Positions 26,637 to 61,681 of a stretch of DNA of 64,000 bases are shown in pieces; the first letter of the stretch is position 1; every line of letters starts with the position of its first letter. The notes beneath the pieces were generated by a model, which was not told where the DNA came from, did not search any database, and saw only the letters and a list, made by a program, of their open reading frames with translations. The position numbers and the translations under genes are program-made. This DNA comes from a virus (Duplodnaviria; Caudoviricetes): positions 96,001 through 160,000 of the IMG/VR virus record IMGVR_UViG_3300029288_000065. One strand, given 5' to 3'.

Positions 26637-26808
26637 TGGTGCTCCTGGAAGGGTTCGAACCTCCAACCTTCCAATGGGATGAAACCCACCATCTAGTGCT
26701 ACGGATCAGACCCATCACACGAGTCGTCCCTTTAGATGACAGGTCATCACCCACTGGTGCTCCACCGACCCCACTACTGCGATAGTGGAGATTTTGAGCT
26801 ACAGGAGC
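26637..26808 (-). ncRNA. 172-nt tRNA-like RNA with D-loop hairpin insertion and extended anticodon arm
   Basis: acceptor GCTCCTG/CAGGAGC + A-CCA, TAGCTC/GAGC D stem, GGAGG-TTCGAAC-CCTTC T arm, long internal helices. Confidence 0.8.
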
Positions 26809-27252: not shown

Positions 27253-27558
27253 TTAGAGAAGCTTTAGTTCTCGGAACCAACCACTATCAACTGACGGGGA
27301 AATTGCCAATGCTGTGTGTGCGTTAATGTCTGGTTCATGGAAAATTGCGTGCTTAATTTCCTTGAACTTTTTCTCCCACGAGAGTAAGTCTTCCTCATCC
27401 TTGACGCCCAGGAGGACCATCGTCTTGTGGTTATTGTTCCAATCCTGTACCTATGGATCAGTTAGGTACCTGGAGAGGAACTCCGCTACAGCATGGCAAG
27501 CCTGTACTGCACGCTGAGAGGGCGAAAGATCCTTACGCACTAGCACATACAACTTCAT
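27253..27558 (-). CDS. pth2: peptidyl-tRNA hydrolase 2-like protein with in-frame amber at codon 36
   Basis: MKLYVLVRKDLSPSQRAVQACHAVAEF..P*VQDW..KTMVLLGVKDEEDL..FHEPD..TALAISP..LKLL; SD AGGAG; absent from the ORF track. Confidence 0.85.
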
Positions 27559-27919
27559 CTCGGAGTCTCCTTTCTTCCTGTATTTCCTTGCCCAGTTCCA
27601 ACCACTTTCTCTCGTATTTCTCGTCTCTGAGTTTCTCCATCAGACCAAATAAACTTCTGTTTGCGTAGGCTATGAGGTATGGGTATTTGTCTGAAATGTG
27701 ACAGGCTCGTTTGTCGTTCTCATTGCGATGGATGTGTAGTGCAATTAACCATTTGGAAGCTTCACGTTTATATCCTACGTAGGTTTTCCAGTTTTTTGAT
27801 TTTGGGTTGATGTGTTCGCCGATTTTGGTTCTAGAGTCTTGTTTTAAATCGGTGATTGCTTTGGCGTTTTTCCGGATGTAGTGCTTAATTACTTCTTCGA
27901 CCGTCAAATTCGTCGTCAT
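27533..27919 (-). CDS. basic hypothetical protein, first gene after the leader hairpin
   Basis: SD AAGGAG 7 nt before ATG 27919. Confidence 0.7.
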   Translation of the reverse strand: MTTNLTVEEVIKHYIRKNAKAITDLKQDSRTKIGEHINPKSKNWKTYVGYKREASKWLIALHIHRNENDKRACHISDKYPYLIAYANRSLFGLMEKLRDEKYERKWLELGKEIQEERRLRDEVVCASA

Positions 27920-27926
27920 CTTAAGT

Positions 27927-27975
27927 CTCCTTAACGGGTTTTGACCGAGGGGGTTGGCCATTACCCGTTAAGGAG
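27927..27975 (-). promoter_or_regulatory. SD-sequestering hairpin (13-bp perfect stem)
   Basis: CTCCTTAACGGGT ... ACCCGTTAAGGAG; the 3' arm contains the AAGGAG SD of ATG 27919. Confidence 0.85.
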
Positions 27976-28006
27976 GGTGAAGATCGATGTTTGGTACCTA
28001 ACGCAT
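27968..28006 (-). promoter_or_regulatory. leader uORF M-R-(TAG)-V-P-N-I-D-L-H-P-P-TAA
   Basis: own SD AGGAG; amber at codon 3; last codons overlap the 5' arm of the hairpin. Confidence 0.75.
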
Positions 28007-28862: not shown

Positions 28863-28938
28863 TGGCGCTTCCGGAGGGAATCGAACCCCCAACACACTGA
28901 TTTAGATTCAGCTGCTCTACCAATTGAGCTACGGAAGC
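28863..28938 (-). tRNA. amber suppressor tRNA (anticodon CUA)
   Basis: 76-nt cloverleaf GCTTCCG..TAGCTCAATTGGTAGAGC..GCTGA-ATCTAAA-TCAGT..GGGGGTTCGATTCCCTC..CGGAAGC-G-CCA. Confidence 0.92.
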
Positions 28939-49852: not shown

Positions 49853-52800
49853 TCAGACCATGTTATTGATGAAATACTCGAACAGGAGTTTTCTATCTTC
49901 CATTGTCATATTAACACATGCCAGACAATGATTCTTTGTTGTATTGTAAAGTTTCGCCATCCGAACCTCATCTCCCTCCTCCAAATATCTAACAACCCTA
50001 TTCTTGATAGGAGCACTGACGACACATTCAACGATCAACTTGGCCATTTCTCTTAGAGTTGGCTCTACATCTTCAAGATATAGGTTGTATATGTTCTGTT
50101 TGACTGTTTCGTCCTCTTTCTCCCAGGCGTTCAATGCTTCTTGTTCAATTTTGGCATGGAGGTGTTCTACTTCTTTCCTCTTTTCCTCATTTTCTTCGAA
50201 AGACTTATTTGGGTCAGGTTCAAATTCAAATCTCTTGTTTAGACGTTCTACTACATCATCAATATCCAGGAGTTGCCATCCCTTACTGGCGTCTGCTTCT
50301 TGTTCTTGCTGCCATTTGGCTTCCTTTTCTTCCTCTTCTTCCTGTTCTTGTGAGAGAGGTGTGAAACCGTATAATTTTCCTCTTCTGTCCTTTTCTTGTA
50401 GGAACATTGGCATATGGATTCTTGCCCATTCTGCCATGGCAGCAGGATCTTCACCGAATTTATACCGGAGGGCATATTGCCAGAATCTGTCCAAGTCCCA
50501 GTTAAAGAATACTCTAAATGTTGCGCGAGTACTTTCAACACCGGCATAAGGTTCGTTTTCTTGACGGTAAGAATCTGCAACGTCTCTGATCAATCCTATT
50601 GATTCATCCTCAGTCTCAGTTGCGAACAGCTTTTTCTCAGGCTCACTTTTCAGATCTATCACTTTACCAAGCAACTGAGTATTCCCACCAAATACCTTCT
50701 TCTTCCATTCATCTCTTGACATATAAGGATCACCCCATGAAGAAACAATAGCTGGATCATAAAGTAATACCAACTTTTTGAAGATTCTCTGTGCTCTGGC
50801 TGGACTAATTTCAAGTTGCATAGCCTTCCCGATGAAATTAATCTCTTTCTTCTTAATCATCTGAGCACGTGCGGCCAAGAAATCATCTCCAATTGGACCA
50901 CCATAAACCTTAGACTTCTGGTCAATATATTCCTTGTAAACTTTGGTCATATATTCATCGAATTTATCTCTAATAAAAGAACCTTCCTCGCCAGCAATAG
51001 AATCAGGTAAGCCGAATTTAATCCTATTGGCTTCAGCTCTGTAAAAATCATTCTTCCACAGGTTCTTATCGGCCTTTTGGTAGGTTCTGAGAACAGAATC
51101 ATTTATATCAAAATCGACATTATGGAGACCGAACCTATCCCCAACATTTACCTTTATACCCCTTGGGCCTGTGTAGGATACAGTACCAGTCTCTGGATCA
51201 AAATCTGTAACTTCAACTGTACCATTTGGAAGATCAACAGAAACATTCTCTCGGAAATTGACGTTTTGGTCAATCAGATCTTCTGAAGTGAATTTGTTGT
51301 GCGCTGGGACACTAGAAACATAACCAGTAATTACAGGATTCTTAAACTGTGAAACCAACTGTTCCTCAATAGCATTTCTAAGGCCTTCATGAGTGGTTAA
51401 TGTTTCTTGGTAAGTAGGATCGTTCTTGTCACTTGGTAATTCTATTCCCTTTATTGTCTTTCTTGGGATAGTAATATACATCTCATATTTCATATCTTTC
51501 TCACTCTCAATTTCTTTTTTGAAATAACGGGTGAACATTTCTACTTTTTTCTCAATGGGAACTTTTGCCATATTCTCTTGGAACTCTTCAAAATCAGTAA
51601 TACCATACTTGACAAAATCGTCCTTGTGCTGTTCCCAAGTCATCCTCTCATATTTCTCGATGTTGGACGTATTCCATCTAAATTTGGCACCTGCTACCCT
51701 ATCAACCGAGATGCCTGTTCCATTGGAAACCATAATATATGCTCTGTACATCCTGCCATTGACGTTTACTGCTTGTGGTTCTGGTAGATGTATTACCGTG
51801 AAACCTACGCCCTTCTTCATCAGTTCTGGTGGTGGTGGCTGATTCAGGACTACTTCACCTGTCTCAGGATTAAACAAGAAATCACCGTTGGTATCTCTCT
51901 TGACGTGGTAGGTTCCAGACCCAAGTTTGATAATGGTTGATTCATCTTTTAGGATCTTGCTAATTGTTGGAGTACTGGCACTTCTACCTCTTGCTTTGGA
52001 GAATGTAGCAGAGGTAATACTTGGGAGTTCAGGATTGGCGTCGTCAATTTTTCCATGGATCAGGTTTAGGTCGTCTATATCATATCCCTTCTTTAAATTC
52101 TTAAAGATAGTTGAGGTTACGTCATTGGCTAGTTGGACATAAGTTCTATCAGTAACATTTAATTCTTTGACATCACGGCTTACTTTCTCAAGTTCTCCTT
52201 GGATTAATTTGAACAGGCGTGGTCCATTGAATACTGAATTACCAGAGTGAATCATACCAGGAGGCATTTTCTGGTTTTTCTGAATATAACCATAGAGTTC
52301 TTTTTCGGAGAAGTCTTCCGCTGGTGTTTCAATAATCTGATCTACCATTTGGGATATTTCATCTCGTGCTGTGAAAAATTTCCCAGCAGCTTGACGCTTC
52401 GTTTTAGCTAATTTATACATATCCATTATGTCTTTTGGATTCTGTTTGGCGTCAAAGTCTTGCATGAACGCCATTAAATCTTTCTCCATCTGTGACATAA
52501 CCACCTTGAATTGTTGGATATAATCGTCACTTGTGCTTAGATCAAGAAATTCTCGTTTTGGAATATAGATCCAAAGTTCGTAATGTGCTGGAATTTTATT
52601 GCGTGGTGTAGAAGCTCGTTCAATTCTCTTGAATGGTTCCAGACCCTGTTCCTTCGAAGTTGGTGAAATCATATCTTCAGCATAGTATTGGTATATTTTC
52701 TCCAGAGTGTCCCGTAACATCTCATATTCAGCAATTTGTTCCTCGTTGAAACCTGAATTCTCAATGGAATAAAGTGATCTTCTTGAGCCATCAGATTCTT

Positions 52801-55213
52801 CACCCAGATCCATTAAAGTCCGTTCGTAGGAAGCTTTTCTAAATGCGTTTAATCTGTCAACGATATCTGTTAGATAAGAATCAAAAAATACTTCCTTTTC
52901 TGTCTCTTCCAATGGGAGAGATACTGGACGCTTCTTATTTCGCATGATTAGATTCTTCTGGTCATCGAACCACGACCCATATTTCTCAAACGCCGCAATA
53001 ATATAATCTTGGGTGGCTTTCCCAGAATCTGGGTCATTAAGCATCTCATCTAACGATGACGAAATCCTATCCAGGTATAATCTGACAAGCATTTTCTTCT
53101 TGGTTTCGCGGTCTTTTCTATACTCCTTACGAATTCTTCTATCATGATCTCTAACTTCTGGTGATTCCTTTATAGACTGGATCATATACATCCAGGATGG
53201 GTAAGATCTCCCACCACGAGTGAAAGGCTTAGATTTGTCAACTTTTTTCTGGATTGGAGGGGCAGCACCCTCAGCTTCACAAATTACTTGTTCCAAATGC
53301 TTAAAAATATCCTCTGCAACTGCTGGCATTTTGGATTTCTTTTGCTTTAATTCAGCTGGCAGTAGTTCCTCCAAAGATCGTCGTGATGTAAAAGGATCTT
53401 CCTTATCGCTATCTGTTTTCTTTATCTCAATCTTTAACTTTGGATTCCCAGAGATTACAGCCACCAAATTAAAAATCGTCCTACCCAAAGCAACTGTACC
53501 CAGTTCATACTTCGGCAATGTCCCCTCTTTCAATTTTCTGGTATCAACATTGGTATCAGCCAATTTCTCGACAACGGTCGCAGAGAGAGCAACAATGGGA
53601 TCTTTGGATGTCTTGTAAGAGTCAAAGTTCGCAGTTACAGATTCCTTGACATTATCCATCTGTTTCTTTTTGTGAGCTTGGAATTTCTCAAGAAGTCCTT
53701 TTATATAATTTAGATCATCGAGAGTGTCAATTTTCCCGATCTTTATCCGTTTAAGGAATTCTGGGTCTAAATTTTGTGACCCTATTTCTTTTACTGCTTC
53801 TCTGGTTGTATCGATAATATCTTCAAATCTTGCTGAACCACCAACTTTTCTATACTCATCCTGTAGAGTTTTTAGATCACCATTCTTTTTGGCTGTTGTT
53901 AATTTCTGGAGTAATGCTGTTTTCTCTTGTGAACCATACTCAACATATAATGTTTTTAGGCTTTCCAATGCCTTCATGTATTTTTCTTTTGTGTTTGGAT
54001 AAAGTTCCATTGCTCTCTTTGGGAGGTCTCCTATGCTCTTTAGGAGATCATTATATTCATCTTGGGTGATCATTTTTTGTTCGAGATTATACTTCAGTAG
54101 ATCGGAAGTATTCTTTTGGAGTCTCTTTAAAGCTGTCTGTAGGTCGCCTGATCTAACTTGGGACATTTCATTGAATAATTCCAATGTGAATTGGTCAGTT
54201 AATATATCTCTGAATTCGTCAAGTGTAATGTCACCAGCATCACTAAAGTCCAGTTTGATATTTTTTAGAATATCAACTTGTTCTCCTGAGAAGAGATCTG
54301 GTCTTGTTAATAATGCTGATAGCATTGTCATTGCATCGGCAGATCCAAGATTTTTCTCTTGGAGGAAATCTATTTGCCCATCTGATAATTTACTTCCACC
54401 AGAACCTATAAATGCTTTTCCACTTATCCTTATTGTGTTAAAACTAATCTGGTTTATGATTTGATTTATTCTCTGTACAGCTTCTGGATTTATTCCCTTG
54501 TCATTTCGTACATCGTTTATTCTATTTGTCAGAAATACTTCGTTGTCAATTTCATCTTGGGTTGTTGCCTGTTTCTTGGCTTTCATAATATTATCAATGA
54601 TGTTGTTTATAGTACATTTCCCTATTTTGTCATTAATATCATCATATTCACTCTTGACCTGATCAAAATCTTTCTTTGCTTTGATATATGATTGGTATGA
54701 TTTCTTACTGTGTTCTGTTGGTCTCGATACAAAGTCACTCCATGAGGAACCATACTCTTTTAAGAAGTACCTGATCTTCTCAATTGCTTTTTGTGTTTCG
54801 GCGTTTACTGCGTCACTGCCTTTCTTTTCATCAGTTGGTAGGATTGGATTATTTGGGAACCTGTCATTGTAGAGTTTCCAGAGTTCTGTTCCTGTGAATT
54901 CTGCGTGGGACCACTGGGTACTTTGGTCGCCACGTCGAAGTGCATCATATAATGCTGCTCCGAGGACTGCTTGCTGGATTTCTGGGTCCCAGTCTTTTCC
55001 AAGTTTTCTGGAGATTAGCTGAACTTGGCGTAGGATTTGTTTGCGTCGTCTGGCGTTCTGTAATCCTGTCTTTAGATTCTTGGTATCTTCGTCTCCTGTT
55101 TCTTCTGGTTCTATACTGGGGTCTACTCTTTTCCTTTGTTCTTCTTCTCCGGCTTCTGATAGTATACTGGGTCCATGGCTTGACAGCGGTAGAAACTTAT
55201 TCTTCACAGTCAT
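49853..55213 (-). CDS. giant (1786 aa) putative virion protein
   Basis: uninterrupted ORF, ILSEAG near the N-terminus, charged helical composition. Confidence 0.75.
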   Translation of the reverse strand: MTVKNKFLPLSSHGPSILSEAGEEEQRKRVDPSIEPEETGDEDTKNLKTGLQNARRRKQILRQVQLISRKLGKDWDPEIQQAVLGAALYDALRRGDQSTQWSHAEFTGTELWKLYNDRFPNNPILPTDEKKGSDAVNAETQKAIEKIRYFLKEYGSSWSDFVSRPTEHSKKSYQSYIKAKKDFDQVKSEYDDINDKIGKCTINNIIDNIMKAKKQATTQDEIDNEVFLTNRINDVRNDKGINPEAVQRINQIINQISFNTIRISGKAFIGSGGSKLSDGQIDFLQEKNLGSADAMTMLSALLTRPDLFSGEQVDILKNIKLDFSDAGDITLDEFRDILTDQFTLELFNEMSQVRSGDLQTALKRLQKNTSDLLKYNLEQKMITQDEYNDLLKSIGDLPKRAMELYPNTKEKYMKALESLKTLYVEYGSQEKTALLQKLTTAKKNGDLKTLQDEYRKVGGSARFEDIIDTTREAVKEIGSQNLDPEFLKRIKIGKIDTLDDLNYIKGLLEKFQAHKKKQMDNVKESVTANFDSYKTSKDPIVALSATVVEKLADTNVDTRKLKEGTLPKYELGTVALGRTIFNLVAVISGNPKLKIEIKKTDSDKEDPFTSRRSLEELLPAELKQKKSKMPAVAEDIFKHLEQVICEAEGAAPPIQKKVDKSKPFTRGGRSYPSWMYMIQSIKESPEVRDHDRRIRKEYRKDRETKKKMLVRLYLDRISSSLDEMLNDPDSGKATQDYIIAAFEKYGSWFDDQKNLIMRNKKRPVSLPLEETEKEVFFDSYLTDIVDRLNAFRKASYERTLMDLGEESDGSRRSLYSIENSGFNEEQIAEYEMLRDTLEKIYQYYAEDMISPTSKEQGLEPFKRIERASTPRNKIPAHYELWIYIPKREFLDLSTSDDYIQQFKVVMSQMEKDLMAFMQDFDAKQNPKDIMDMYKLAKTKRQAAGKFFTARDEISQMVDQIIETPAEDFSEKELYGYIQKNQKMPPGMIHSGNSVFNGPRLFKLIQGELEKVSRDVKELNVTDRTYVQLANDVTSTIFKNLKKGYDIDDLNLIHGKIDDANPELPSITSATFSKARGRSASTPTISKILKDESTIIKLGSGTYHVKRDTNGDFLFNPETGEVVLNQPPPPELMKKGVGFTVIHLPEPQAVNVNGRMYRAYIMVSNGTGISVDRVAGAKFRWNTSNIEKYERMTWEQHKDDFVKYGITDFEEFQENMAKVPIEKKVEMFTRYFKKEIESEKDMKYEMYITIPRKTIKGIELPSDKNDPTYQETLTTHEGLRNAIEEQLVSQFKNPVITGYVSSVPAHNKFTSEDLIDQNVNFRENVSVDLPNGTVEVTDFDPETGTVSYTGPRGIKVNVGDRFGLHNVDFDINDSVLRTYQKADKNLWKNDFYRAEANRIKFGLPDSIAGEEGSFIRDKFDEYMTKVYKEYIDQKSKVYGGPIGDDFLAARAQMIKKKEINFIGKAMQLEISPARAQRIFKKLVLLYDPAIVSSWGDPYMSRDEWKKKVFGGNTQLLGKVIDLKSEPEKKLFATETEDESIGLIRDVADSYRQENEPYAGVESTRATFRVFFNWDLDRFWQYALRYKFGEDPAAMAEWARIHMPMFLQEKDRRGKLYGFTPLSQEQEEEEEKEAKWQQEQEADASKGWQLLDIDDVVERLNKRFEFEPDPNKSFEENEEKRKEVEHLHAKIEQEALNAWEKEDETVKQNIYNLYLEDVEPTLREMAKLIVECVVSAPIKNRVVRYLEEGDEVRMAKLYNTTKNHCLACVNMTMEDRKLLFEYFINNMV

Positions 55214-55258
55214 ATGAATTCTCCGTTCTGTCTCTATATATTTTTGAATATAATTGTT

Positions 55259-58200
55259 TTAGATCTCTTCGAAATCACCACTTGGTCCAGGTTTCAGACC
55301 CAGTTGTCGTAATTTCTCTTGCCTCTTCAACTCTTGCTCACGAGATGCAGACTTTCCTGTAGGAATTGTAACCTTGGCACCAGGACGAGCCTCAATGCCA
55401 TAGTACCCATGTGGAGGTGCAGGAGATGGAGTAATAACCTCTTCTTCCTCACCCTCCTCACCCTTTTCAGGATGATATTTCGCAGGGCCAACATACCTCT
55501 GTAATACCTTCTTAACATTCGGATCTGTCTCCTTCTGATAGAGATCCCAAATCTTATCAAAAGATGTATTCTTCCACTTTCCACCACCAACCATCAAGCT
55601 CTTCAGAGCTGTCAACATAGTCTCATCCGGGCCAGCATCCAAAATTCTTGAGATTGTACTATCGACCATTTCCTGATTTGGTTCTTTTAGACGGTCAATA
55701 AGTGACACTGCAGTATTTTCAGAGATTCTACCACCACTATCAGCTGCGAAATGTGCTGAAGTAAGATTCTTGGAAATATATCCAGCTTCATCCCTCAATG
55801 CCAATAGGAAATCCTCTTCATTATCATAAGTATTTATATTCTCGTCCCCAACCCTATGAGCTTGGAATTTTACTTCCAAATCATCAGCCAAAGGACCAAT
55901 ATTGGCATTTGACAATTCATTTGCAATTGCAACCAAATCCTCATCGCTCATTTCTGATAGAGCTTTTATCTGCTTTTTGGAATTCTTTAATGATAGAAGA
56001 ATTGCTCTCTCATCGTCTTTATCTGGGAAAGTAACACCATACTTCTTACTATAATACTTGACATATCTAACATCCTTTGAGATATCAAGCTGAATATCAG
56101 CAATATCAGATGAAGAATAATATTTTCCAGTCTTTGAATCATAAAAATTCCTGGAATTCTTCAACTGTTCCAGTAACTTTTCTTGATCTGCCAAATCTCT
56201 TGTCAATTTGGCCTCTTCTGGACCTGGTTCAGCATTTCTCAATTTTGTCCTAATGGTAGAAATTGTACCATTAACTTTCTTGATTCTTTCTGTGTCAATA
56301 GCTGGACCAACTTTCCTCTTTTCTGGAGTAGTTGATACTTCTCGGAGTTTTAATCTCTTGGCTATCTCCTGTGCCTGACTAGCAATATTGGCTTTATATT
56401 CTTCTGTGTCTACCTTGGCCAGTCTTCCTGTTATTTCACCTGCGAACATCATAATGGCATTGGAAATCTGTTGTGGGTCAATAGCTTCACCAGTTTTTGC
56501 TGATTGTCTCTTTATAGCTGCTACCTTTTGACGTGTAGCGTAAAGTTCCAAGTCTGTGTCCAGGGAAGCCATTAGATTTTGGTGTACTAGTCGTCGTACA
56601 TCTTCTGGATTCTGTTGTGGGTCCATCCCTTCTGGGAGAGAGATAGCGAAGTTACTCTCTTTATCTTGCCAAGAGTTTGAAGCTTTCCTGCGTAGTAGTT
56701 CTCTTCTAACATCATCAGTCAATTTTATAAGGATTGGATCGTTTGGATTTTTTGGATCTGGTTCTCTTGGTTGTACGCTTTCAAGTCTATCTATAATCTC
56801 ATCGAATAATTTCATTGGATCATCTCCTTTTCGGAGGGATCCAATCATTTTCAACATGGTATCAACTTCTGTGTCAGTAAACTTTCTTACGCCTTGATCG
56901 TCTTGGACGCCACGGAGGGCATTTTTCATGATTTTTGGATCTGTTATTTGTTCGGTGTCAAATCGTTCTTTTATGTTCCTTGCGTGTTCGACCAGTTCGT
57001 CAAAGTCTGGACGAATTAGTTCTCTGAAGTATTCATCATCTGGGTCGAATGTTGGTGATGCCTCAAATGACATACCAGTCTCTGGATCTCTCCAGAGATT
57101 CTTGTTCGCTGGCATCTTGAAGCCAGTTACAGGATCATGCCACTCATACTTGAATACCTTTTTGGTACCAAGGAGATCTCTAAAGAAACCAACTTTGGCC
57201 TGATCGTCATGAAGTCCAAATTTTAACATCAATAGATTTCTCTCACGGTCTGTGAGAGATGGAATTTTCATTATCATGTCAACGGTATCATGAATTTGGG
57301 CTATTGTGTCTGGCGTTGGTACGCTTAGGGATTTCTGTGTATCTATTAATTGTTCTCTCTTATCGCCGGCTCCTTGTATTTCTTGGTCAAGTGATAGAGT
57401 TGTTGACAATGGGATTGGACGTACGAAAACAAATTTGTTCAAGTACCTCTTCATGTTCCAATCACTACTTAAGTCCAACAGAGCAACATTCTTGGCACTG
57501 TTGAGGGTTTGACTTCGACCTTCCTCATCCTTTACCTTGTCAGCATAACCATTAAGTACCTGTCTAATGGTTTTATTAACCTGGCGTATCTTATCTCTGA
57601 ACTCCTGAGAAGAAGATCTCCCCTCGGATCTCTCATAATCATTTCGGATAACATAAGGCTTCCCGCCACGACCAGCAACTCGAATAGGACCAAATCCTTC
57701 CGTAAAATGCTTCCCATTGAGTACATCTTCCACAGTCTTTGGTATATCCTTATCAGGAATCTTACCAGTCTCTTTAAGACGTATGCCATCATGAGAGTAA
57801 AGTTTTCCATCTTGTGGGTTTAGGAATGTGTAAATCCACATTACGTAAGCTTGTACTGGGGCACTTACAATCAAGACATCCCAAGTTCCACCGGCTGGGT
57901 GAGCTGTAATTCGTCTTGATGGACCAGCCATAAACCGGTTGGACAATTCTTTATTAATAGTGAATAATACATACCTGACAAAACCGGGATTGGACCTCTC
58001 CATCCTTCTTCCTTCCGGTCCTTCCCTGAGTTCGTTTACCTTCTCTTCAACCTTCTTGGTAGTGAAGTTCTTATTGGACACCAATTTCTTGGCAACTTCC
58101 ATTGGAGTTACATCTTTCCACCATGTTGGTCGACCATTTTCCAGAATATCATCCGTCCAATATAACGATCCTTCTATGAATTCCAATCCGTCATATACCT

Positions 58201-61200
58201 TCTTAGCTTGATCTGTAACATACTTTTCATCTTCTGGCGCTGTTCCTCTCAGAGAAGCTCTGATTACTCTTGTAATTTCATCCAAAGACGGTTTTTGATT
58301 TTCACCCTCACCTTTAAAGTATGAAGGTTTTCCATTCCCCTTTTGATACACCCACACATTTTGCTGTGGGTGGAATTCTGCTGTTTCAGCTACTTCAAGT
58401 GCCTCTTCAGGAGTTAATTTTACTGATCTCATAACTATATCACGGAGTTGGTCTTTATCAGGCTTCGTTGGATCTTGTGGATCATTATCCAAATCGGTGT
58501 AATACCGGTCTGATTGTGGGTCGAACCAAGTATTTCTGCGTTTATCATTCTCAAGTGCTTTGAAGACCAGTTTTCTAGCTTCTTCACGTACATCGTCAAG
58601 TTCTTGCTGTTTCTTATAGAGTTGGAACTTGTAATATATTCTGTCCGCTGCTGCGTCAACCAATCCACCAATTGTGTCGAAGATCTGTTCGACTGTCCAA
58701 CCAGTACCTTGGAGTTTTTGATCCAACCATCTTTGGTAGGAATCATCATCTGAGAATGCTCTGGCAGAGAAAGGATCTGAGGGATCCAATTTCTGTTTGT
58801 AATCGTTTGGATTTACTACATCGGAAGACTGCATTATATCAGTAATTCTGTCTAAGGTACGGAGTGAACGTGGGTTTTCATAATTTGAGATTACAAGTTT
58901 GCGCCCGCTTCTCGTCTCATATTCCACTTGTTCTCTTCCATGTGATACTTCCATGGTCTGGCTTGGGTCTTGTGGATTTCTGGTACGAGGTCTATATCCC
59001 AATTGTGCGCCAAAGAGAGAAAGTGCGAGTTCAGCATCTCTCAGTGTCTGGAATGCGAAAAGTTTTTCTGGAGCTGTATCGTCATTCTCGATACTTCCAT
59101 CTTCAGCACGCTTAAGACCTATAGGAGCTTCAAAGTCAATCTTTCCGTTTTCATCAGAGAGGTAGATGCCCCAAAGGTAATCACCTGGTGTATTCCAAAT
59201 TTTCCTACCACCAACACCTCTCTTGGGTATAAATGGACTCTTTCCACCAGACTTCTTAACAACTACTTTTAGTAAGAGTGCTATTGGGTCTATGGTTTCT
59301 TCTGTTTCCATTGCATCTACTTCAAGTCTGTTATCAATATCACCAAATTTGGCCCTGGCATAATTCATAGCGTTTTCTTCAGCTGTCTTATTTCCATTTC
59401 TGGATGGGCCAGTAAAAACTTCCCGTTCTCTTTCTTGACCATCAAGATCTGTATATTTTACAATATACTTCCTGAATGGAATTACATTACCTTCTTGATC
59501 GGAATAAGTTTCTTGAATATTCCTAACAGATTCAGGATCGAAGCCTATCTTTGTGATTTCTCCACTACCAGGAGGGAATTCAACCGAGATTGGTCTACTA
59601 AAGAGACTATTATAAATCCTTTGCTTAACCTCATCGGTCAGTCTATTCCCGTAAAGGTTCAACAGGAATGATGCTTCGTTTTCTGCCTCATCACCAGATG
59701 AAGTTCTGGAGATCTTTATGTCATTCCTTCTAACTACAGCAAGGTCTAATGGTTCTCCGTAGTACAATCCTTTGATTGTAGCAAGTTGTTCATCGTTATT
59801 CACCCATTGGAATTCTTCAACTGAGATGGGGGTATGTTTCTCTGCTAGTTTTCCACCCTCTTCAACTTCTGTTCTAAACTGTGTACATGCTGCTATGATC
59901 TTGGGTTTTGCAGCTTTAAAGTCTGCAAAATAGATTCTGTTCTTGATTGCATTATAATTCTCATATAAGCTTTCTTTTTCTTGAGTATTCATTGGTTGAA
60001 TACCAAGGATGTCTCTGCGGACTTTGGATACCCATGGTCTTAGGTTTTCTGGTAGTTTGGATTCGACTTCTTCATCCGATGAAGGTGGTGCGTAGACTAT
60101 TTTTGGTTTTTTCTGGAATTTTATTTCATATGCGATTAGTCGTTCTGTGGTCTGTTCGTCTATTTCTTCATCCGACACTGATAATCCTTGATCGCGGCGG
60201 TAAAGCAATTCGTCCATCGCTTGTTCTTTAATAATCTTGACAGTCCATTCTGCGTCTTCTTCGTCATACTCTCCAGATTCCATTATCCTGGCACGTTCCT
60301 CTGGTTCCACTCTGAAGTATAATTCTTTGATGGAGTCAAGGGCATTTCTGGCGAACATTGTTGCCAGATGCTTTTTGGTTTCGTCCTGGAGGTCCCCTTC
60401 AATAATATTATAGACAGGTTGCTGAAGTCCAGGGGGTGGTACTTTTGATGCTGCTATCTGGAGTGTATCTGTGGGTGAGAGAGCTTCCAGATCTTGTGCT
60501 TCAGCCTTCTTCAGTTTTTCCAATGACAAAGTTAGAGCTTTTTGAGCATTTTCTATGCCTGAACCGGTCTGCTTGGCATTATTTAGGGTTTCCCTTTTTT
60601 CTATTACGTCTTGTTGTGCTCTGTCTACGTAGATTGCTACTAGGCCAGTTAGATTATGTTTCTTGAGGGCATTCTTTATGTCTGCGACGTATGTTGCTAT
60701 TTCTTGGGTCGTTGGTGTTTCGAGGTGTGTTGCTTGTTCTGCTGCTGATGCCCATTCGGATACTTTGGTCTTTATGTGGTTGGCTATGCTTTGGAGTACT
60801 GGTACTTGTTTTTCGTCAGTTGGGTCCATTCTTCGTACGATACCATCTATGGTTAGTCTGCCGTTACTCCATTCGGCATCTTTATCGCGTCTTAGGAATC
60901 TATCTGCCCATCGTCCTGCTGGTACCCAGGCACCGGTAGTACTTATGTCTTTTCTGGTGGCTGCTTTTTCTGTCTTTGCTTGTGGGATTACTCTATATCC
61001 CATCATGACTTTTAGGATATTGTCTGAGATTGTGGAGACCATTCTGTTTATTGGTGGTGTGAAATCTCTATTGTTGGTTGTTAGGTATGTGTTGATTGCT
61101 GGCAACATTCTTTGTAGTCTGGTGTACATCTGTTCTTTGTTGGCAGTTATTTCTGTTTCTTCTTCGGTTTCTGCCATCCCTGCCAATTCTGGGTGTTCTT

Positions 61201-61681
61201 CCTCTTCTCCTTCTGGGGTTTCTTCTTCTTTGTTGATTTCTGTTTCTTGGATTTTCTCCATTCCGATTGTAATTGCGGTTTGGAGTCCTTCGATAAATCC
61301 TACTGGATCTCCCCATCCCAGTCTTTGGAGTGTTTCTACGTCAAGTGTTTTTACGTCGCTTGATGGTAATCCCCGATTATCTTCGTCTTCTTCATCTATT
61401 GGGCTGTATATTTCTTCTGTGATCATATGGGGGTGTTTTTCTTTGATGTATTCATATACTATTCGTGCTTCTTGTTTAATTTCGTTGATTATTCCTTTGG
61501 GTCTGGCGCAACCGATGTGGACCAGTCCGATGCTTCTGAAGATGTGTCCCAGGTCTATTACTGATTCGCAGAGGGTACAAAAGTCTCTTTGGTATGCTAT
61601 TTCTTCCAGTACGCTGATTGGTAGACAGGAGTAATACTTTGGTTTGATTATCCAATTCTTCTTCCCTAATACAGTTGACAT
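55259..61681 (-). CDS. giant (2140 aa) protein containing sigma70-like regions
   Basis: LSLDQEI..LID..P..LTDRERNLLMLKFGL; SD GGAGG. Confidence 0.7.
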   Translation of the reverse strand: MSTVLGKKNWIIKPKYYSCLPISVLEEIAYQRDFCTLCESVIDLGHIFRSIGLVHIGCARPKGIINEIKQEARIVYEYIKEKHPHMITEEIYSPIDEEDEDNRGLPSSDVKTLDVETLQRLGWGDPVGFIEGLQTAITIGMEKIQETEINKEEETPEGEEEEHPELAGMAETEEETEITANKEQMYTRLQRMLPAINTYLTTNNRDFTPPINRMVSTISDNILKVMMGYRVIPQAKTEKAATRKDISTTGAWVPAGRWADRFLRRDKDAEWSNGRLTIDGIVRRMDPTDEKQVPVLQSIANHIKTKVSEWASAAEQATHLETPTTQEIATYVADIKNALKKHNLTGLVAIYVDRAQQDVIEKRETLNNAKQTGSGIENAQKALTLSLEKLKKAEAQDLEALSPTDTLQIAASKVPPPGLQQPVYNIIEGDLQDETKKHLATMFARNALDSIKELYFRVEPEERARIMESGEYDEEDAEWTVKIIKEQAMDELLYRRDQGLSVSDEEIDEQTTERLIAYEIKFQKKPKIVYAPPSSDEEVESKLPENLRPWVSKVRRDILGIQPMNTQEKESLYENYNAIKNRIYFADFKAAKPKIIAACTQFRTEVEEGGKLAEKHTPISVEEFQWVNNDEQLATIKGLYYGEPLDLAVVRRNDIKISRTSSGDEAENEASFLLNLYGNRLTDEVKQRIYNSLFSRPISVEFPPGSGEITKIGFDPESVRNIQETYSDQEGNVIPFRKYIVKYTDLDGQEREREVFTGPSRNGNKTAEENAMNYARAKFGDIDNRLEVDAMETEETIDPIALLLKVVVKKSGGKSPFIPKRGVGGRKIWNTPGDYLWGIYLSDENGKIDFEAPIGLKRAEDGSIENDDTAPEKLFAFQTLRDAELALSLFGAQLGYRPRTRNPQDPSQTMEVSHGREQVEYETRSGRKLVISNYENPRSLRTLDRITDIMQSSDVVNPNDYKQKLDPSDPFSARAFSDDDSYQRWLDQKLQGTGWTVEQIFDTIGGLVDAAADRIYYKFQLYKKQQELDDVREEARKLVFKALENDKRRNTWFDPQSDRYYTDLDNDPQDPTKPDKDQLRDIVMRSVKLTPEEALEVAETAEFHPQQNVWVYQKGNGKPSYFKGEGENQKPSLDEITRVIRASLRGTAPEDEKYVTDQAKKVYDGLEFIEGSLYWTDDILENGRPTWWKDVTPMEVAKKLVSNKNFTTKKVEEKVNELREGPEGRRMERSNPGFVRYVLFTINKELSNRFMAGPSRRITAHPAGGTWDVLIVSAPVQAYVMWIYTFLNPQDGKLYSHDGIRLKETGKIPDKDIPKTVEDVLNGKHFTEGFGPIRVAGRGGKPYVIRNDYERSEGRSSSQEFRDKIRQVNKTIRQVLNGYADKVKDEEGRSQTLNSAKNVALLDLSSDWNMKRYLNKFVFVRPIPLSTTLSLDQEIQGAGDKREQLIDTQKSLSVPTPDTIAQIHDTVDMIMKIPSLTDRERNLLMLKFGLHDDQAKVGFFRDLLGTKKVFKYEWHDPVTGFKMPANKNLWRDPETGMSFEASPTFDPDDEYFRELIRPDFDELVEHARNIKERFDTEQITDPKIMKNALRGVQDDQGVRKFTDTEVDTMLKMIGSLRKGDDPMKLFDEIIDRLESVQPREPDPKNPNDPILIKLTDDVRRELLRRKASNSWQDKESNFAISLPEGMDPQQNPEDVRRLVHQNLMASLDTDLELYATRQKVAAIKRQSAKTGEAIDPQQISNAIMMFAGEITGRLAKVDTEEYKANIASQAQEIAKRLKLREVSTTPEKRKVGPAIDTERIKKVNGTISTIRTKLRNAEPGPEEAKLTRDLADQEKLLEQLKNSRNFYDSKTGKYYSSSDIADIQLDISKDVRYVKYYSKKYGVTFPDKDDERAILLSLKNSKKQIKALSEMSDEDLVAIANELSNANIGPLADDLEVKFQAHRVGDENINTYDNEEDFLLALRDEAGYISKNLTSAHFAADSGGRISENTAVSLIDRLKEPNQEMVDSTISRILDAGPDETMLTALKSLMVGGGKWKNTSFDKIWDLYQKETDPNVKKVLQRYVGPAKYHPEKGEEGEEEEVITPSPAPPHGYYGIEARPGAKVTIPTGKSASREQELKRQEKLRQLGLKPGPSGDFEEI

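What the first reader, a model, noticed from the sequence alone, without database searches (positions are those of the whole stretch)
28863..28938. Amber suppressor tRNA in a genome that still uses TAG as stop
Seen: canonical 76-nt cloverleaf with encoded CCA, anticodon loop A-U-CUA-A-A (unusual A32), G1-C72/C2-G71/U3-A70 and discriminator G. No other register of the anticodon stem pairs, so the anticodon is CUA rather than UCU. The amino acid carried cannot be read from the sequence. Suppressor tRNAs are known in large phages, usually with wholesale TAG reassignment; here only selected targets are visible.
Basis: partly seen in the sequence, partly recalled or inferred. Interest (0 to 1): 0.75.

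Follow-up and report, generated by a model that had tools for sequence, protein, structure and literature searches.

The report
Phage amber-suppressor tRNA with its own targets
A giant phage that uses the normal genetic code carries a real tRNA that reads the stop codon UAG, and its visible targets are UAG "locks" on a small neighbouring gene cassette; this pairing recurs in dozens of distant phages and gives long-puzzling phage suppressor tRNAs a concrete job, still untested at the bench.

Summary
Window 28938->28863 (minus strand) encodes a canonical 76-nt tRNA with anticodon CUA, A32, discriminator G73 and an encoded CCA (ARAGORN; Rfam 67 bits; cloverleaf is the minimum-energy fold). The genome is a 234-kb virus record that uses the standard code: about 18% of its genes end in TAG, as its base composition predicts.

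The targets sit just downstream on the same strand. One is a leader ORF, Met-Arg-UAG...Pro-Pro-stop, placed against a 13-bp hairpin that hides the next gene's ribosome-binding site. The other is a Pth2-like (peptidyl-tRNA-hydrolase-fold) gene with UAG at codon 36.

Across 80 related phage loci:
- At least 72 carry a tRNA(CUA) within 4 kb, and one carries tRNA(UUA).
- 20 have an in-frame TAG in the Pth2-like gene, at 9 or more different positions. None has an in-frame TAA or TGA.
- Start-proximal TAG leaders outnumber the TAA/TGA controls by 54 to 5 and 8.

Cultured phages ME3 and XacN1 show the same start-proximal amber.

The amino acid carried cannot be read from the sequence (weak lean to Lys or Gln). 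No expression or charging data exist.

This scan has noted the same cassette before, in sibling notes on this window and in at least 45 other genomes. I found no published description.

The parts
28863..28938 (-). tRNA(CUA), an amber-suppressor-type elongator tRNA. 76 nt, class I, A32, G73, encoded CCA.
   Evidence: ARAGORN. Rfam 67 bits. Cloverleaf is the MFE fold. Orthologue L004 is 88% identical, with compensatory stem changes and CUA kept. Across the family, 20 of 21 pairs show covariation.
27968..28006 (-). Leader ORF ATG CGT TAG GTA CCA AAC ATC GAT CTT CAC CCT CCT TAA (Met-Arg-amber-...-Pro-Pro-stop). The amber is at 27998-28000. An AGGAG Shine-Dalgarno sequence lies upstream.
   Evidence: Sequence. 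The strict pattern gives 23 hits on the Pth2 strand of 80 related loci, against 0 on the other strand and 0 with TAA or TGA as the first stop. The relaxed pattern gives TAG 54, TGA 8, TAA 5. It is the only convincing such leader in this genome.
27927..27975 (-). Hairpin with a 13-bp stem. The 5' arm (27963-27975) covers the Pro-Pro-stop codons. The 3' arm (27927-27939) contains the AAGGAG Shine-Dalgarno of ORF C.
   Evidence: RNA fold -34.3 kcal/mol, z = -3.3. The same design, with different sequences, is seen in 5 of the 6 relatives folded.
27533..27919 (-). ORF C (128 aa), the partner protein of the cassette. Function unknown.
   Evidence: Homologues in L001 (42% identity) and L004/L025 (32%). 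In relatives, a gene in the same slot forms a family with the motif (F/Y)RHxHIAYCxLRGR..EQIExP, and it is fused to the Pth2-like domain in L064, L084 and L089. No Pfam or PHROG match. Whether ORF C belongs to that motif family rests on position and weak similarity only.
27253..27558 (-). Pth2-like gene (101 codons) with an in-frame amber at codon 36 (27451-27453), in the context CCA TAG GTA C.
   Evidence: Pfam PF01981 scores 44.5 bits (cut-off 23) over residues 1-91, across the TAG. A genome-wide PTH2 search finds this one gene and reports '1 TAG' inside it. The same amber position is kept in L001 and L002. The Pth2 fold is confirmed on the L089 homologue: 1wn2, Z 12.0, rmsd 2.4 A over 100 residues.

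Best explanation
This is a functional phage-encoded amber-suppressor tRNA. It acts in trans as the key to a small UAG-locked gene cassette next to it. Shown: the tRNA is canonical and conserved with its CUA anticodon; the phage otherwise uses TAG as a stop; and the only credible in-frame UAGs in the genome lie in the adjacent leader ORF and in the Pth2-like gene. Inferred: the tRNA is transcribed, processed and charged by a host aminoacyl-tRNA synthetase. The phage encodes none of the candidate synthetases and no release factor. The amino acid is undetermined, with Lys or Gln most likely, and probably does not matter. When the tRNA is active it competes with RF1 at two sites. (1) At codon 3 of the leader, read-through carries the ribosome on to Pro-Pro-stop, a slow-terminating site that lies on the 5' arm of a 13-bp hairpin. 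The hairpin opens, ORF C's Shine-Dalgarno sequence is freed, and ORF C is translated. (2) At codon 36 of the Pth2-like gene, read-through yields the full-length enzyme. Without the tRNA, the leader ends after two residues, the hairpin stays shut, and the Pth2-like product is a 35-residue stub. The cassette proteins are therefore made only when, and in proportion as, UAG is being read as sense: a feed-forward switch. Ordinary TAG stops (about 60 genes) would be partly read through as a side effect. What the cassette ultimately does for the phage is not shown. The most likely role is handling tRNA-linked by-products of suppression or of heavy phage translation.
For: The tRNA is real and canonical. 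The genome uses the standard code and TAG stops are not depleted: 60 of 328 genes, matching TAG's 19% share of stop trinucleotides. The Pth2 domain runs across the TAG. The leader and hairpin are read directly from the sequence and fold as proposed. In 80 loci found with a Pth2-like profile, 71 have a tRNA(CUA) by ARAGORN; L032 adds a D-arm-poor tRNA(CUA), and L080 has a tRNA(UUA) in the same slot. Of the 74 tRNA(CUA)s, 72 are co-oriented with the Pth2-like gene and 34 lie 0-150 nt after its stop. CUA accounts for 74 tRNAs, against 9 or fewer for any other anticodon. In-frame TAG occurs in the Pth2-like gene of 20 relatives plus the window, at 9 or more distinct positions, with no in-frame TAA or TGA. 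None of these loci looks TAG-recoded. Leaders are enriched for TAG: strict pattern 23 against 0/0; relaxed pattern 54 against 8/5. All 40 strictly gated loci have a tRNA(CUA), and none of the 8 loci without one is gated (Fisher p = 0.0027). All 23 strict leader ambers are followed by a purine, mostly GTN or ATN. The tRNA family shows compensatory changes at 20 of 21 pairs. Orthologue L004 keeps CUA through stem changes. Cultured phages show start-proximal ambers in frame with their Pth2-like genes: ME3 (ATG ACT TAG ATT, next to its annotated tRNA 'anticodon CTA') and XacN1 ORF364 (ATG AAG TAG ACC).
Against: There is no evidence here of transcription, processing, aminoacylation or decoding. A32 is unique in the family and could weaken or tune decoding. 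About 60 ordinary TAG stops, 38 of them followed by a purine, would also be read through, which is a cost with no visible compensation. The logic is partly circular: if the tRNA's only targets are its own cassette, the selective benefit of the whole is unexplained. No promoter or terminator signal exceeds shuffled controls. The tRNA's position and sequence are not conserved even in the closest relatives L001 and L002, so the tRNA gene turns over. In XacN1, and possibly ME3, an in-frame start codon downstream of the amber could bypass the gate. The genome is about 89% complete and is cut inside a tRNA array, so other tRNAs or targets may be missing. One of the seven leader regions folded (L025) showed no convincing hairpin.
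Confidence: 0.7

Rival explanations
1. Evolutionary intermediate on the way to TAG reassignment (the model of Borges et al.). On this view, the phage has acquired a suppressor tRNA and in-frame TAGs are starting to accumulate by drift. The cassette has no special regulatory meaning.
For: Suppressor tRNAs do occur in standard-code relatives of recoded phages and have been read this way. Lak phages, which are TAG-recoded, also encode the Pth2-like protein. This genome has one gene with an internal TAG.
Against: TAG stops are not depleted here: 18% of genes, as composition predicts. GC is 40%, which is not extreme. In-frame TAGs are confined to the same gene family and its leader in phages spanning 31-60% GC, arose at 9 or more positions independently, and sit at codon ~3 or in tolerant loops. 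No relative locus shows a TAG-sense signal. Drift would scatter TAGs over many genes.
Confidence: 0.1
2. The tRNA's main job is global. It reads through ordinary UAG stops of host or phage genes, either to extend particular proteins, to disturb host translation, or to counter a host defence. The gated cassette would then be only a sensor or governor that keeps suppression in check or cleans up after it.
For: About 60 phage genes end in TAG, 38 of them with a purine at +4, the context seen at the gated sites. Gating the Pth2-like enzyme by suppression makes sense if the enzyme deals with by-products of suppression. One relative has a phage tmRNA beside the cassette. The circularity of a purely self-referential module argues for some outside benefit.
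Against: Read-through extensions of TAG-terminated genes are neither longer nor more coding-like than those after TAA or TGA (median 12, 14 and 8 codons). The long ones are neighbouring genes with their own TAGGAG ribosome sites. The XacN1 authors read through 18 amber stops in silico and found nothing. No host is known for this phage, so host targets could not be tested.
Confidence: 0.15
3. The tRNA does not decode. It could be a decaying gene, a decoy for an anticodon nuclease, an integration or processing signal, or a regulatory RNA. The TAGs in the cassette would then be true stops or pseudogene lesions.
For: A32 is atypical. There are no expression data. The two closest relatives have odd D-arms in their tRNA(CUA).
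Against: The cloverleaf is fully canonical and scores 67 bits. CCA is encoded. Compensatory changes occur at 20 of 21 pairs across 69 tRNAs while CUA, U33 and A37 are kept. The reading frame and catalytic motifs downstream of the ambers are conserved over long divergence. TAG is enriched there, but TAA and TGA are not.
Confidence: 0.05

Closest known systems
Suppressor tRNAs of stop-codon-recoded phages (TAG read as Gln, 'code 15': crAss-like, Lak and others; Borges et al., bioRxiv 10.1101/2021.08.26.457843)
   Same: A phage-encoded tRNA(CUA) acting in a standard-code host. It is presumably charged by host enzymes, and it is proposed to time the expression of the genes that carry in-frame TAG.
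   Different: Here the genome is not recoded. TAG ends about 18% of genes, and in-frame TAG is limited to one small cassette (a leader plus one gene), not spread over structural and lysis genes.
Orphan tRNA(CUA) genes of cultured standard-code jumbo phages (XacN1, PMC5852040; vB_AbaM_ME3, KU935715)
   Same: The same situation: a CUA tRNA in a jumbo phage that uses TAG as a stop. These phages also encode the Pth2-like protein.
   Different: The published work found no targets, because it looked only past annotated amber stops. Here the targets are a start-proximal amber and an internal amber in the Pth2-like cassette. The same start-proximal amber can be seen upstream of the annotated starts in ME3 and XacN1.
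Synthetic suppressor-tRNA feed-forward 'leak dampener' circuits (Ho et al. 2020, PMC7969014)
   Same: The same logic: a gene carries silent nonsense codons and is expressed only when a co-regulated suppressor tRNA is present.
   Different: Those circuits are engineered. This one is natural and is combined with a leader-peptide and hairpin attenuator.
Leader-peptide translational attenuators (ermC, cat; SecM-secA) and prfB autoregulation by an in-frame UGA (own knowledge)
   Same: The position of a ribosome on a short upstream ORF opens a hairpin that hides the next gene's Shine-Dalgarno sequence. In prfB, a stop codon inside the gene senses termination efficiency.
   Different: The signal here is read-through of UAG by a dedicated trans-acting tRNA, not an antibiotic, a secretion state or release-factor level. 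None of it has been tested experimentally.
Laboratory amber suppressors (E. coli supD/supE/supF; T4 psu1) (own knowledge)
   Same: A class I tRNA with a CUA anticodon and the loop context U33-CUA-A37-A38, which is known to favour suppression.
   Different: Those are point mutants of sense tRNAs selected in the laboratory. This one is a long-maintained natural gene with orthologues and no identifiable parent isotype.

Membership tests
Canonical class I elongator tRNA (Rfam RF00005) | Cloverleaf with a 7-bp acceptor stem, 4-bp D stem, 5-bp anticodon stem and 5-bp T stem, U8, G18G19, U33, a T-loop of the TTCRA type, and a short variable loop | tested here: met
   Rfam 67 bits over the full model. 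ARAGORN structure. The cloverleaf is the MFE fold.
Amber suppressor tRNA | Anticodon CUA at positions 34-36 in a 7-nt loop, with no alternative register | tested here: met
   The loop is A32-U33-C-U-A-A37-A38.
Amber suppressor tRNA | It is aminoacylated and inserts an amino acid at UAG in vivo | not testable with these tools
   The support is indirect: conserved reading frames continue past in-frame TAGs in the adjacent gene family.
tRNA-Pyl (ARAGORN's label) | Atypical architecture: 3-nt variable loop, small D-loop without G18G19, 6-bp anticodon stem, one base between the acceptor and D stems (own knowledge of tRNAPyl) | tested here: not met
   This tRNA has a 5-nt variable loop, an 8-nt D-loop with GG, a 5-bp anticodon stem and U8-A9 between the stems. 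The label is only the program's name for CUA.
Suppressor tRNA of a TAG-recoded (code 15) phage | Many genes, typically late ones, carry in-frame TAG, and ORF coverage rises specifically when TAG is read as sense | tested here: not met
   Coverage gain with TAG as sense is no greater than with TGA or TAA. TAG ends 60 of 328 genes. The census of in-frame stops gives TAG 16, TGA 16, TAA 28.
A specific isoacceptor family (Lys, Gln, Trp ...) | Sequence similarity and identity elements (discriminator, acceptor pairs) that point to one synthetase | tested here: inconclusive
   Nearest tRNAs are a mix of Thr, Asn, Met, Lys and Phe at 72-77% identity. GenBank hits are Lys, Trp and Phe tRNAs. The most similar tRNA in relative G002 is tRNA-Lys(UUU). 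The orthologue differs at N73 (G against A). Across the family, N73 is A 27, U 23, G 17, C 2. In relatives, TAG aligns with a conserved Lys in L051 and with a conserved Trp in L062.
Amber-gated Pth2-like cassette (recurrent in this scan; I found no publication) | A tRNA(CUA) within a few kb of a small Pth2-like gene | tested here: met
   In the window they are 1.3 kb apart on the same strand. The pairing holds in at least 72 of 80 related loci.
Amber-gated Pth2-like cassette (recurrent in this scan; I found no publication) | UAG placed start-proximally in a leader or at the gene's N-terminus, and/or inside the Pth2-like ORF, with TAA and TGA not used in the same way | tested here: met
   The window has both the leader amber and the codon-36 amber.
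Peptidyl-tRNA hydrolase 2 (PF01981), for the target gene | Pth2 fold and sequence family | tested here: met
   Pfam 44.5 bits against a cut-off of 23. For homologue L089: 1wn2 Z 12.0, and Foldseek probability 1.0 to archaeal Pth2 and human Bit1.
Peptidyl-tRNA hydrolase 2 (PF01981), for the target gene | Hydrolysis of peptidyl-tRNA (enzymatic activity) | not testable with these tools
   Only the conserved motifs are seen: VRxDL, AVQAxHA and EPD..T.A.

The most novel reading that the evidence does not exclude
The tRNA(CUA), the helical partner protein and the Pth2-like enzyme form a portable, self-contained amber-suppression module. The tRNA is a natural trans-acting translational switch. The Pth2-like enzyme, with its partner, is a dedicated recycler or governor for the suppressor or its by-products. 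Its synthesis is tied to suppression level through start-proximal UAGs, at positions where the inserted amino acid is irrelevant. Such modules would be the missing functional context for orphan suppressor tRNAs in standard-code phages (XacN1, ME3), and a plausible seed from which full TAG reassignment evolves.
Probability: 0.35. Interest if true: 0.85.

Novelty: new variant of a known kind. Interest (0 to 1): 0.7.

Why it matters
Suppressor tRNAs have been reported in standard-code phages for years without any known target; the XacN1 authors say so explicitly (PMC5852040). Here the tRNA has specific, conserved targets that recur independently in many lineages. If that holds at the bench, it would be a natural gene switch operated by a tRNA that overrides a stop codon, a design that synthetic biologists arrived at on their own. 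It would also connect ordinary phages to stop-codon-recoded ones, supply a stock of natural amber suppressors with very diverse bodies, and make the question testable in cultured phages (ME3, XacN1).

Tried and rejected
- Genome-wide recoding is rejected. ORF coverage and the in-frame stop census show nothing special for TAG.
- Programmed read-through fusions at ordinary TAG stops are rejected. The long extensions are neighbouring genes in the same frame, often with the TAG forming part of a TAGGAG ribosome site.
- The in-frame TAG candidate at genome 13449(-) is rejected as antisense to a long tape-measure-like gene. A second leader-like hit at genome 54451(-) lies antisense within a plus-strand gene block.
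- Other start-proximal ambers in this genome show no enrichment over TAA or TGA.
- Isotype assignment gave no clear answer, whether by BLAST, by nearest neighbour among 160 phage tRNAs, by acceptor and discriminator features, or by the residues that align with TAG.
- A phage-encoded release factor (PF00472), GlnRS/GluRS (PF00749), LysRS-type (PF00152) and TrpRS/TyrRS (PF00579) were sought and none was found. The record is about 89% complete.
- No close relative exists in GenBank phages at the DNA level.
- Promoter and terminator scans do not exceed shuffled controls.
- The partner protein has no Pfam or PHROG family. Its helical hairpin has only background-level structural matches (Z 6-7), so no function could be assigned.
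- The reading as tRNA-Pyl is rejected on architecture.
- Four literature searches found no description of the cassette. Subscription-only papers are not covered.

Full report
**Observation.** The window contains exactly one tRNA gene, at 28863-28938 on the minus strand, with anticodon CTA (ARAGORN). Rfam's tRNA model scores it 67 bits against a gathering score of 29, over the full model. The cloverleaf is also the minimum-free-energy and centroid fold (-26.9 kcal/mol, z = -2.6). ARAGORN's label 'tRNA-Pyl' is only its default name for CUA. The architecture is that of an ordinary class I tRNA, not of tRNAPyl.

**Genome context.** The window is positions 96001-160000 of a single 233,959-bp virus record, about 89% complete and 39.6% GC. 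The record holds nine tRNAs. Eight are clustered in the first 2.9 kb, where the contig appears to be cut inside a tRNA array. The CUA tRNA stands alone at 124.9 kb.

**The code is standard.**
- Stop-to-stop ORFs of 100 aa or more cover 95% of the genome under table 11. Treating TAG as sense raises coverage no more than treating TGA or TAA as sense.
- In a rough set of 328 genes, the stops are TAA 145, TGA 123 and TAG 60. TAG's 18% share matches its 19% share of stop trinucleotides, so TAG is neither reassigned nor avoided.
- Read-through extensions after TAG stops are no longer than those after TAA or TGA (medians 12, 14 and 8 codons).
- No release factor and no Gln/Glu-, Lys- or Trp/Tyr-type synthetase is encoded.

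**Targets in this genome.** The elements read along the minus strand as follows:

| Element | Window coordinates |
|---|---|
| tRNA(CUA) | 28938-28863 |
| ORF A | 28859-28440 |
| ORF B | 28443-28048 |
| Leader ORF, ATG CGT TAG GTA ... CCT CCT TAA | 28006-27968 |
| ORF C | 27919-27533 |
| Pth2-like ORF, amber at codon 36 (CCA TAG GTA C) | 27558-27253 |
| ORF E | 27242-26817 |
| tRNA-like RNA | 26808-26637 |

Pfam PTH2 matches residues 1-91 of the read-through product at 44.5 bits (cut-off 23), so the domain runs across the TAG. An independent six-frame genome search finds the same single PTH2 gene and reports '1 TAG' inside it. The Pro-Pro-stop codons of the leader form the 5' arm of a 13-bp hairpin whose 3' arm holds the AAGGAG ribosome-binding site of ORF C (-34.3 kcal/mol, z = -3.3). 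Both ambers share the heptamer TAGGTAC.

A genome-wide census of in-frame stops with coding-like flanks gives TAG 16, TGA 16 and TAA 28. After inspection, only the Pth2-like site survives. The rest are adjacent genes in the same frame, often with the TAG inside a TAGGAG ribosome site, or antisense artefacts. Scans for further leaders or N-terminal ambers show no TAG excess and find only the known leader.

**Relatives.** A search of IMG/VR with the Pth2-like protein, followed by a profile search, returned 80 loci from contigs of up to 494 kb and 31-60% GC.
- ARAGORN finds a tRNA(CUA) within 4 kb in 71 of them. There are 74 such tRNAs, against 9 or fewer for any other anticodon. 72 are co-oriented with the Pth2-like gene, and 34 start 0-150 nt after its stop.
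- Rfam and folding add a D-arm-poor tRNA(CUA) in L032. L080 has a tRNA(UUA) in the same slot.
- The Pth2-like gene carries an in-frame TAG in 20 of the 80 loci, at 9 or more different positions. Most are in a variable loop. In single loci the TAG aligns with a conserved Lys, a conserved Trp, or a frequent Gly. No copy has an in-frame TAA or TGA.
- None of these loci looks TAG-recoded.
- The strict leader pattern (ATG, 0-4 codons, TAG, 2-20 codons, Pro-Pro, stop) occurs 23 times on the Pth2 strand and never on the other strand. With TAA or TGA as the first stop, it gives 0 and 0 on the Pth2 strand and one hit on the other.
- A relaxed pattern (Shine-Dalgarno, ATG, 0-5 codons, stop, within 650 nt upstream) gives TAG 54 (in 50 loci), TGA 8 and TAA 5.
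- Two layouts appear: a free-standing leader ahead of the partner gene, or an amber at about codon 3 of the Pth2-like gene itself (MT*VQ...YLYVLVR), sometimes with a second amber further in.
- All 40 strictly gated loci have a tRNA(CUA), and none of the 8 loci without one is gated (Fisher p = 0.0027).
- All 23 strict leader ambers are followed by a purine, usually GTN or ATN.
- In 6 of the 7 leader regions folded, a hairpin starts 0-15 nt after the leader's stop and sequesters the next Shine-Dalgarno sequence, although the sequences differ.

**The tRNA family.** The 69 distinct tRNA(CUA)s are only about 62% identical to one another, yet 20 of the 21 cloverleaf pairs show compensatory double changes. 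The loop is CUCUAAA in 51 of 69, A37 is present in 68 of 69, and all have short variable loops. The window's A32 is unique. Discriminators are mixed (A 27, U 23, G 17, C 2), and nearest-neighbour isotypes are scattered.

The window's tRNA has a true orthologue in L004: 88% identical, with the same gene order (tRNA, leader, ORF C homologue, Pth2-like gene). It differs by compensatory changes in three stems, U32 in place of A32, A73 in place of G73, and no encoded CCA. The two closest relatives by protein (L001, L002) carry unrelated tRNA(CUA) bodies on the opposite strand.

Selection therefore keeps a working CUA decoder near the cassette, not one particular tRNA or amino-acid identity. This fits ambers placed where any residue would do. 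For this tRNA there is a weak lean to Lys. The most similar tRNA in relative G002 is tRNA-Lys(UUU), and several GenBank hits are phage tRNA-Lys. U35-reading enzymes (LysRS, GlnRS) are the usual chargers of amber suppressors in E. coli (own knowledge). The amino acid remains undetermined.

**The partner and the enzyme.** The gene between the leader and the Pth2-like gene is a conserved family with the motif (F/Y)RHxHIAYCxLRGR..EQIExP. In three loci it is fused to the Pth2-like domain, which implies the two act together. The window's ORF C has homologues in L001 and L004. No library names this family. An AlphaFold model of the natural fusion (pLDDT 89) shows a C-terminal Pth2 fold (1wn2, Z 12.0, rmsd 2.4 A over 100 residues; Foldseek probability 1.0 to archaeal Pth2 and human Bit1). 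The N-terminal domain is a helical hairpin without a specific match.

**Cultured examples and literature.**
- Acinetobacter phage vB_AbaM_ME3 (234.9 kb) has an annotated 'tRNA-OTHER, anticodon CTA' about 450 nt upstream of its Pth2-like gene. That reading frame is preceded, 12 codons upstream of the annotated GTG start, by an in-frame ATG ACT TAG ATT. Its genome paper does not mention this.
- Xanthomonas phage XacN1 has two tRNA(CUA)s. Its authors read through 18 amber stops in silico and found no targets. Its Pth2-like fusion gene, ORF364, is preceded in frame by ATG AAG TAG ACC with a Shine-Dalgarno sequence.
- Borges et al. report occasional suppressor tRNAs in standard-code phages and treat them as a step towards recoding.
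- Four full-text searches found no description of the cassette. The nearest conceptual match is a synthetic suppressor-tRNA feed-forward circuit.

**Mechanism.**
- Shown: the anatomy, the conservation and the controls described above.
- Inferred: the tRNA is made and is charged by a host enzyme. It competes with RF1 at the leader's codon 3, and read-through takes the ribosome to Pro-Pro-stop. C-terminal proline makes termination slow (own knowledge). The ribosome there opens the hairpin and frees ORF C's ribosome site. Read-through at codon 36 completes the Pth2-like enzyme.
- Consequence: the cassette is ON only while UAG is read as sense.
- Unexplained: why a peptidyl-tRNA-hydrolase-like enzyme is the thing being gated. 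The likeliest idea is that it, together with its partner, recycles tRNA-linked by-products of suppression or of heavy phage translation, or sets the suppression level.
- Cost: ordinary TAG stops, 38 of 60 with a purine at +4, would be partly read through.

**Rivals.** The pre-recoding intermediate, a primarily global or host-directed role, and a non-decoding RNA are weighed in their own sections. None of them accounts for the gene-specific, TAG-specific and repeatedly evolved placement of the ambers.

**Earlier notes of this scan.** Sibling notes on this window gave me the lead to the leader and the Pth2-like gene, and I then re-derived both from the sequence with my own controls. A word search shows 54 notes in at least 45 other genomes describing the same tRNA(CUA)/Pth2-like pairing, one of them in a soil bacterium. 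The scan has therefore found this repeatedly on other DNA.

**Verdict.** A suppressor tRNA in a standard-code phage has precedent. The new and interesting part is the conserved amber-gated cassette that gives the tRNA specific targets. All functional steps remain inferences until tested.

Noticed in passing
L076:4001-5170, L079:4001-5170, L085:4001-5140: In three relatives the Pth2-like gene carries an in-frame insertion of about 290 codons, free of TAA and TGA, exactly between the conserved EPD and TAIA motifs. It looks like an intein or an intron-type insertion at the active site.
   Followed up: no
L032:1855-2186: A phage-encoded tmRNA (Rfam RF00023, 108 bits) lies about 1.8 kb upstream of the Pth2-like cassette. 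That locus's tRNA(CUA) has a reduced D-arm, so ARAGORN misses it.
   Followed up: partly
L080:4303-4375: A tRNA with anticodon UUA (ochre-suppressor type) sits 9 nt after the Pth2-like gene, in the slot where other loci have tRNA(CUA).
   Followed up: no
L092:1940-2800 (Xanthomonas phage XacN1, ORF364) and L053:3461-4300: In these two, the Pth2-like domain is the C-terminus of a longer protein whose N-terminal part carries a WHDIGKPF-type motif (possibly HD-like). Both are preceded by a start-proximal in-frame TAG (MK*TIKAM..., MNLA*TINSM...).
   Followed up: partly
window 49853-61681 (-): The 2140-aa and 1786-aa ORFs are in the same frame, separated only by a TAA and 15 codons. Genome-wide, 16 of 145 TAA-terminated genes are followed in frame by 100 or more coding-like codons, against 0 of 123 for TGA. 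This is probably gene-junction geometry.
   Followed up: no
G000:C1:1-2862 (L011): The contig begins inside a tRNA array. Eight tRNAs lie in the first 2.9 kb, and the first bases look like the 3' half of another tRNA. The record is therefore cut, and more tRNAs may be missing.
   Followed up: no
window 27445-27475 (-): The Pth2-like amber lies in the 3' arm of a 7-bp hairpin (GTACCTA, a 9-nt loop, then TAGGTAC). The heptamer TAGGTAC is shared with the leader amber.
   Followed up: partly
L039:914-1065 and L089:4822-4977: Two relatives carry two different tRNA(CUA) genes in tandem, 1-5 nt apart.
   Followed up: no
window 26637-26808 (-): A 172-nt tRNA-like RNA ends the same minus-strand gene block. 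ARAGORN and Rfam do not call it in the window. In L002/L013, ARAGORN calls an odd 'tRNA-??? (gaaa)' that overlaps the end of the Pth2-like gene.
   Followed up: no
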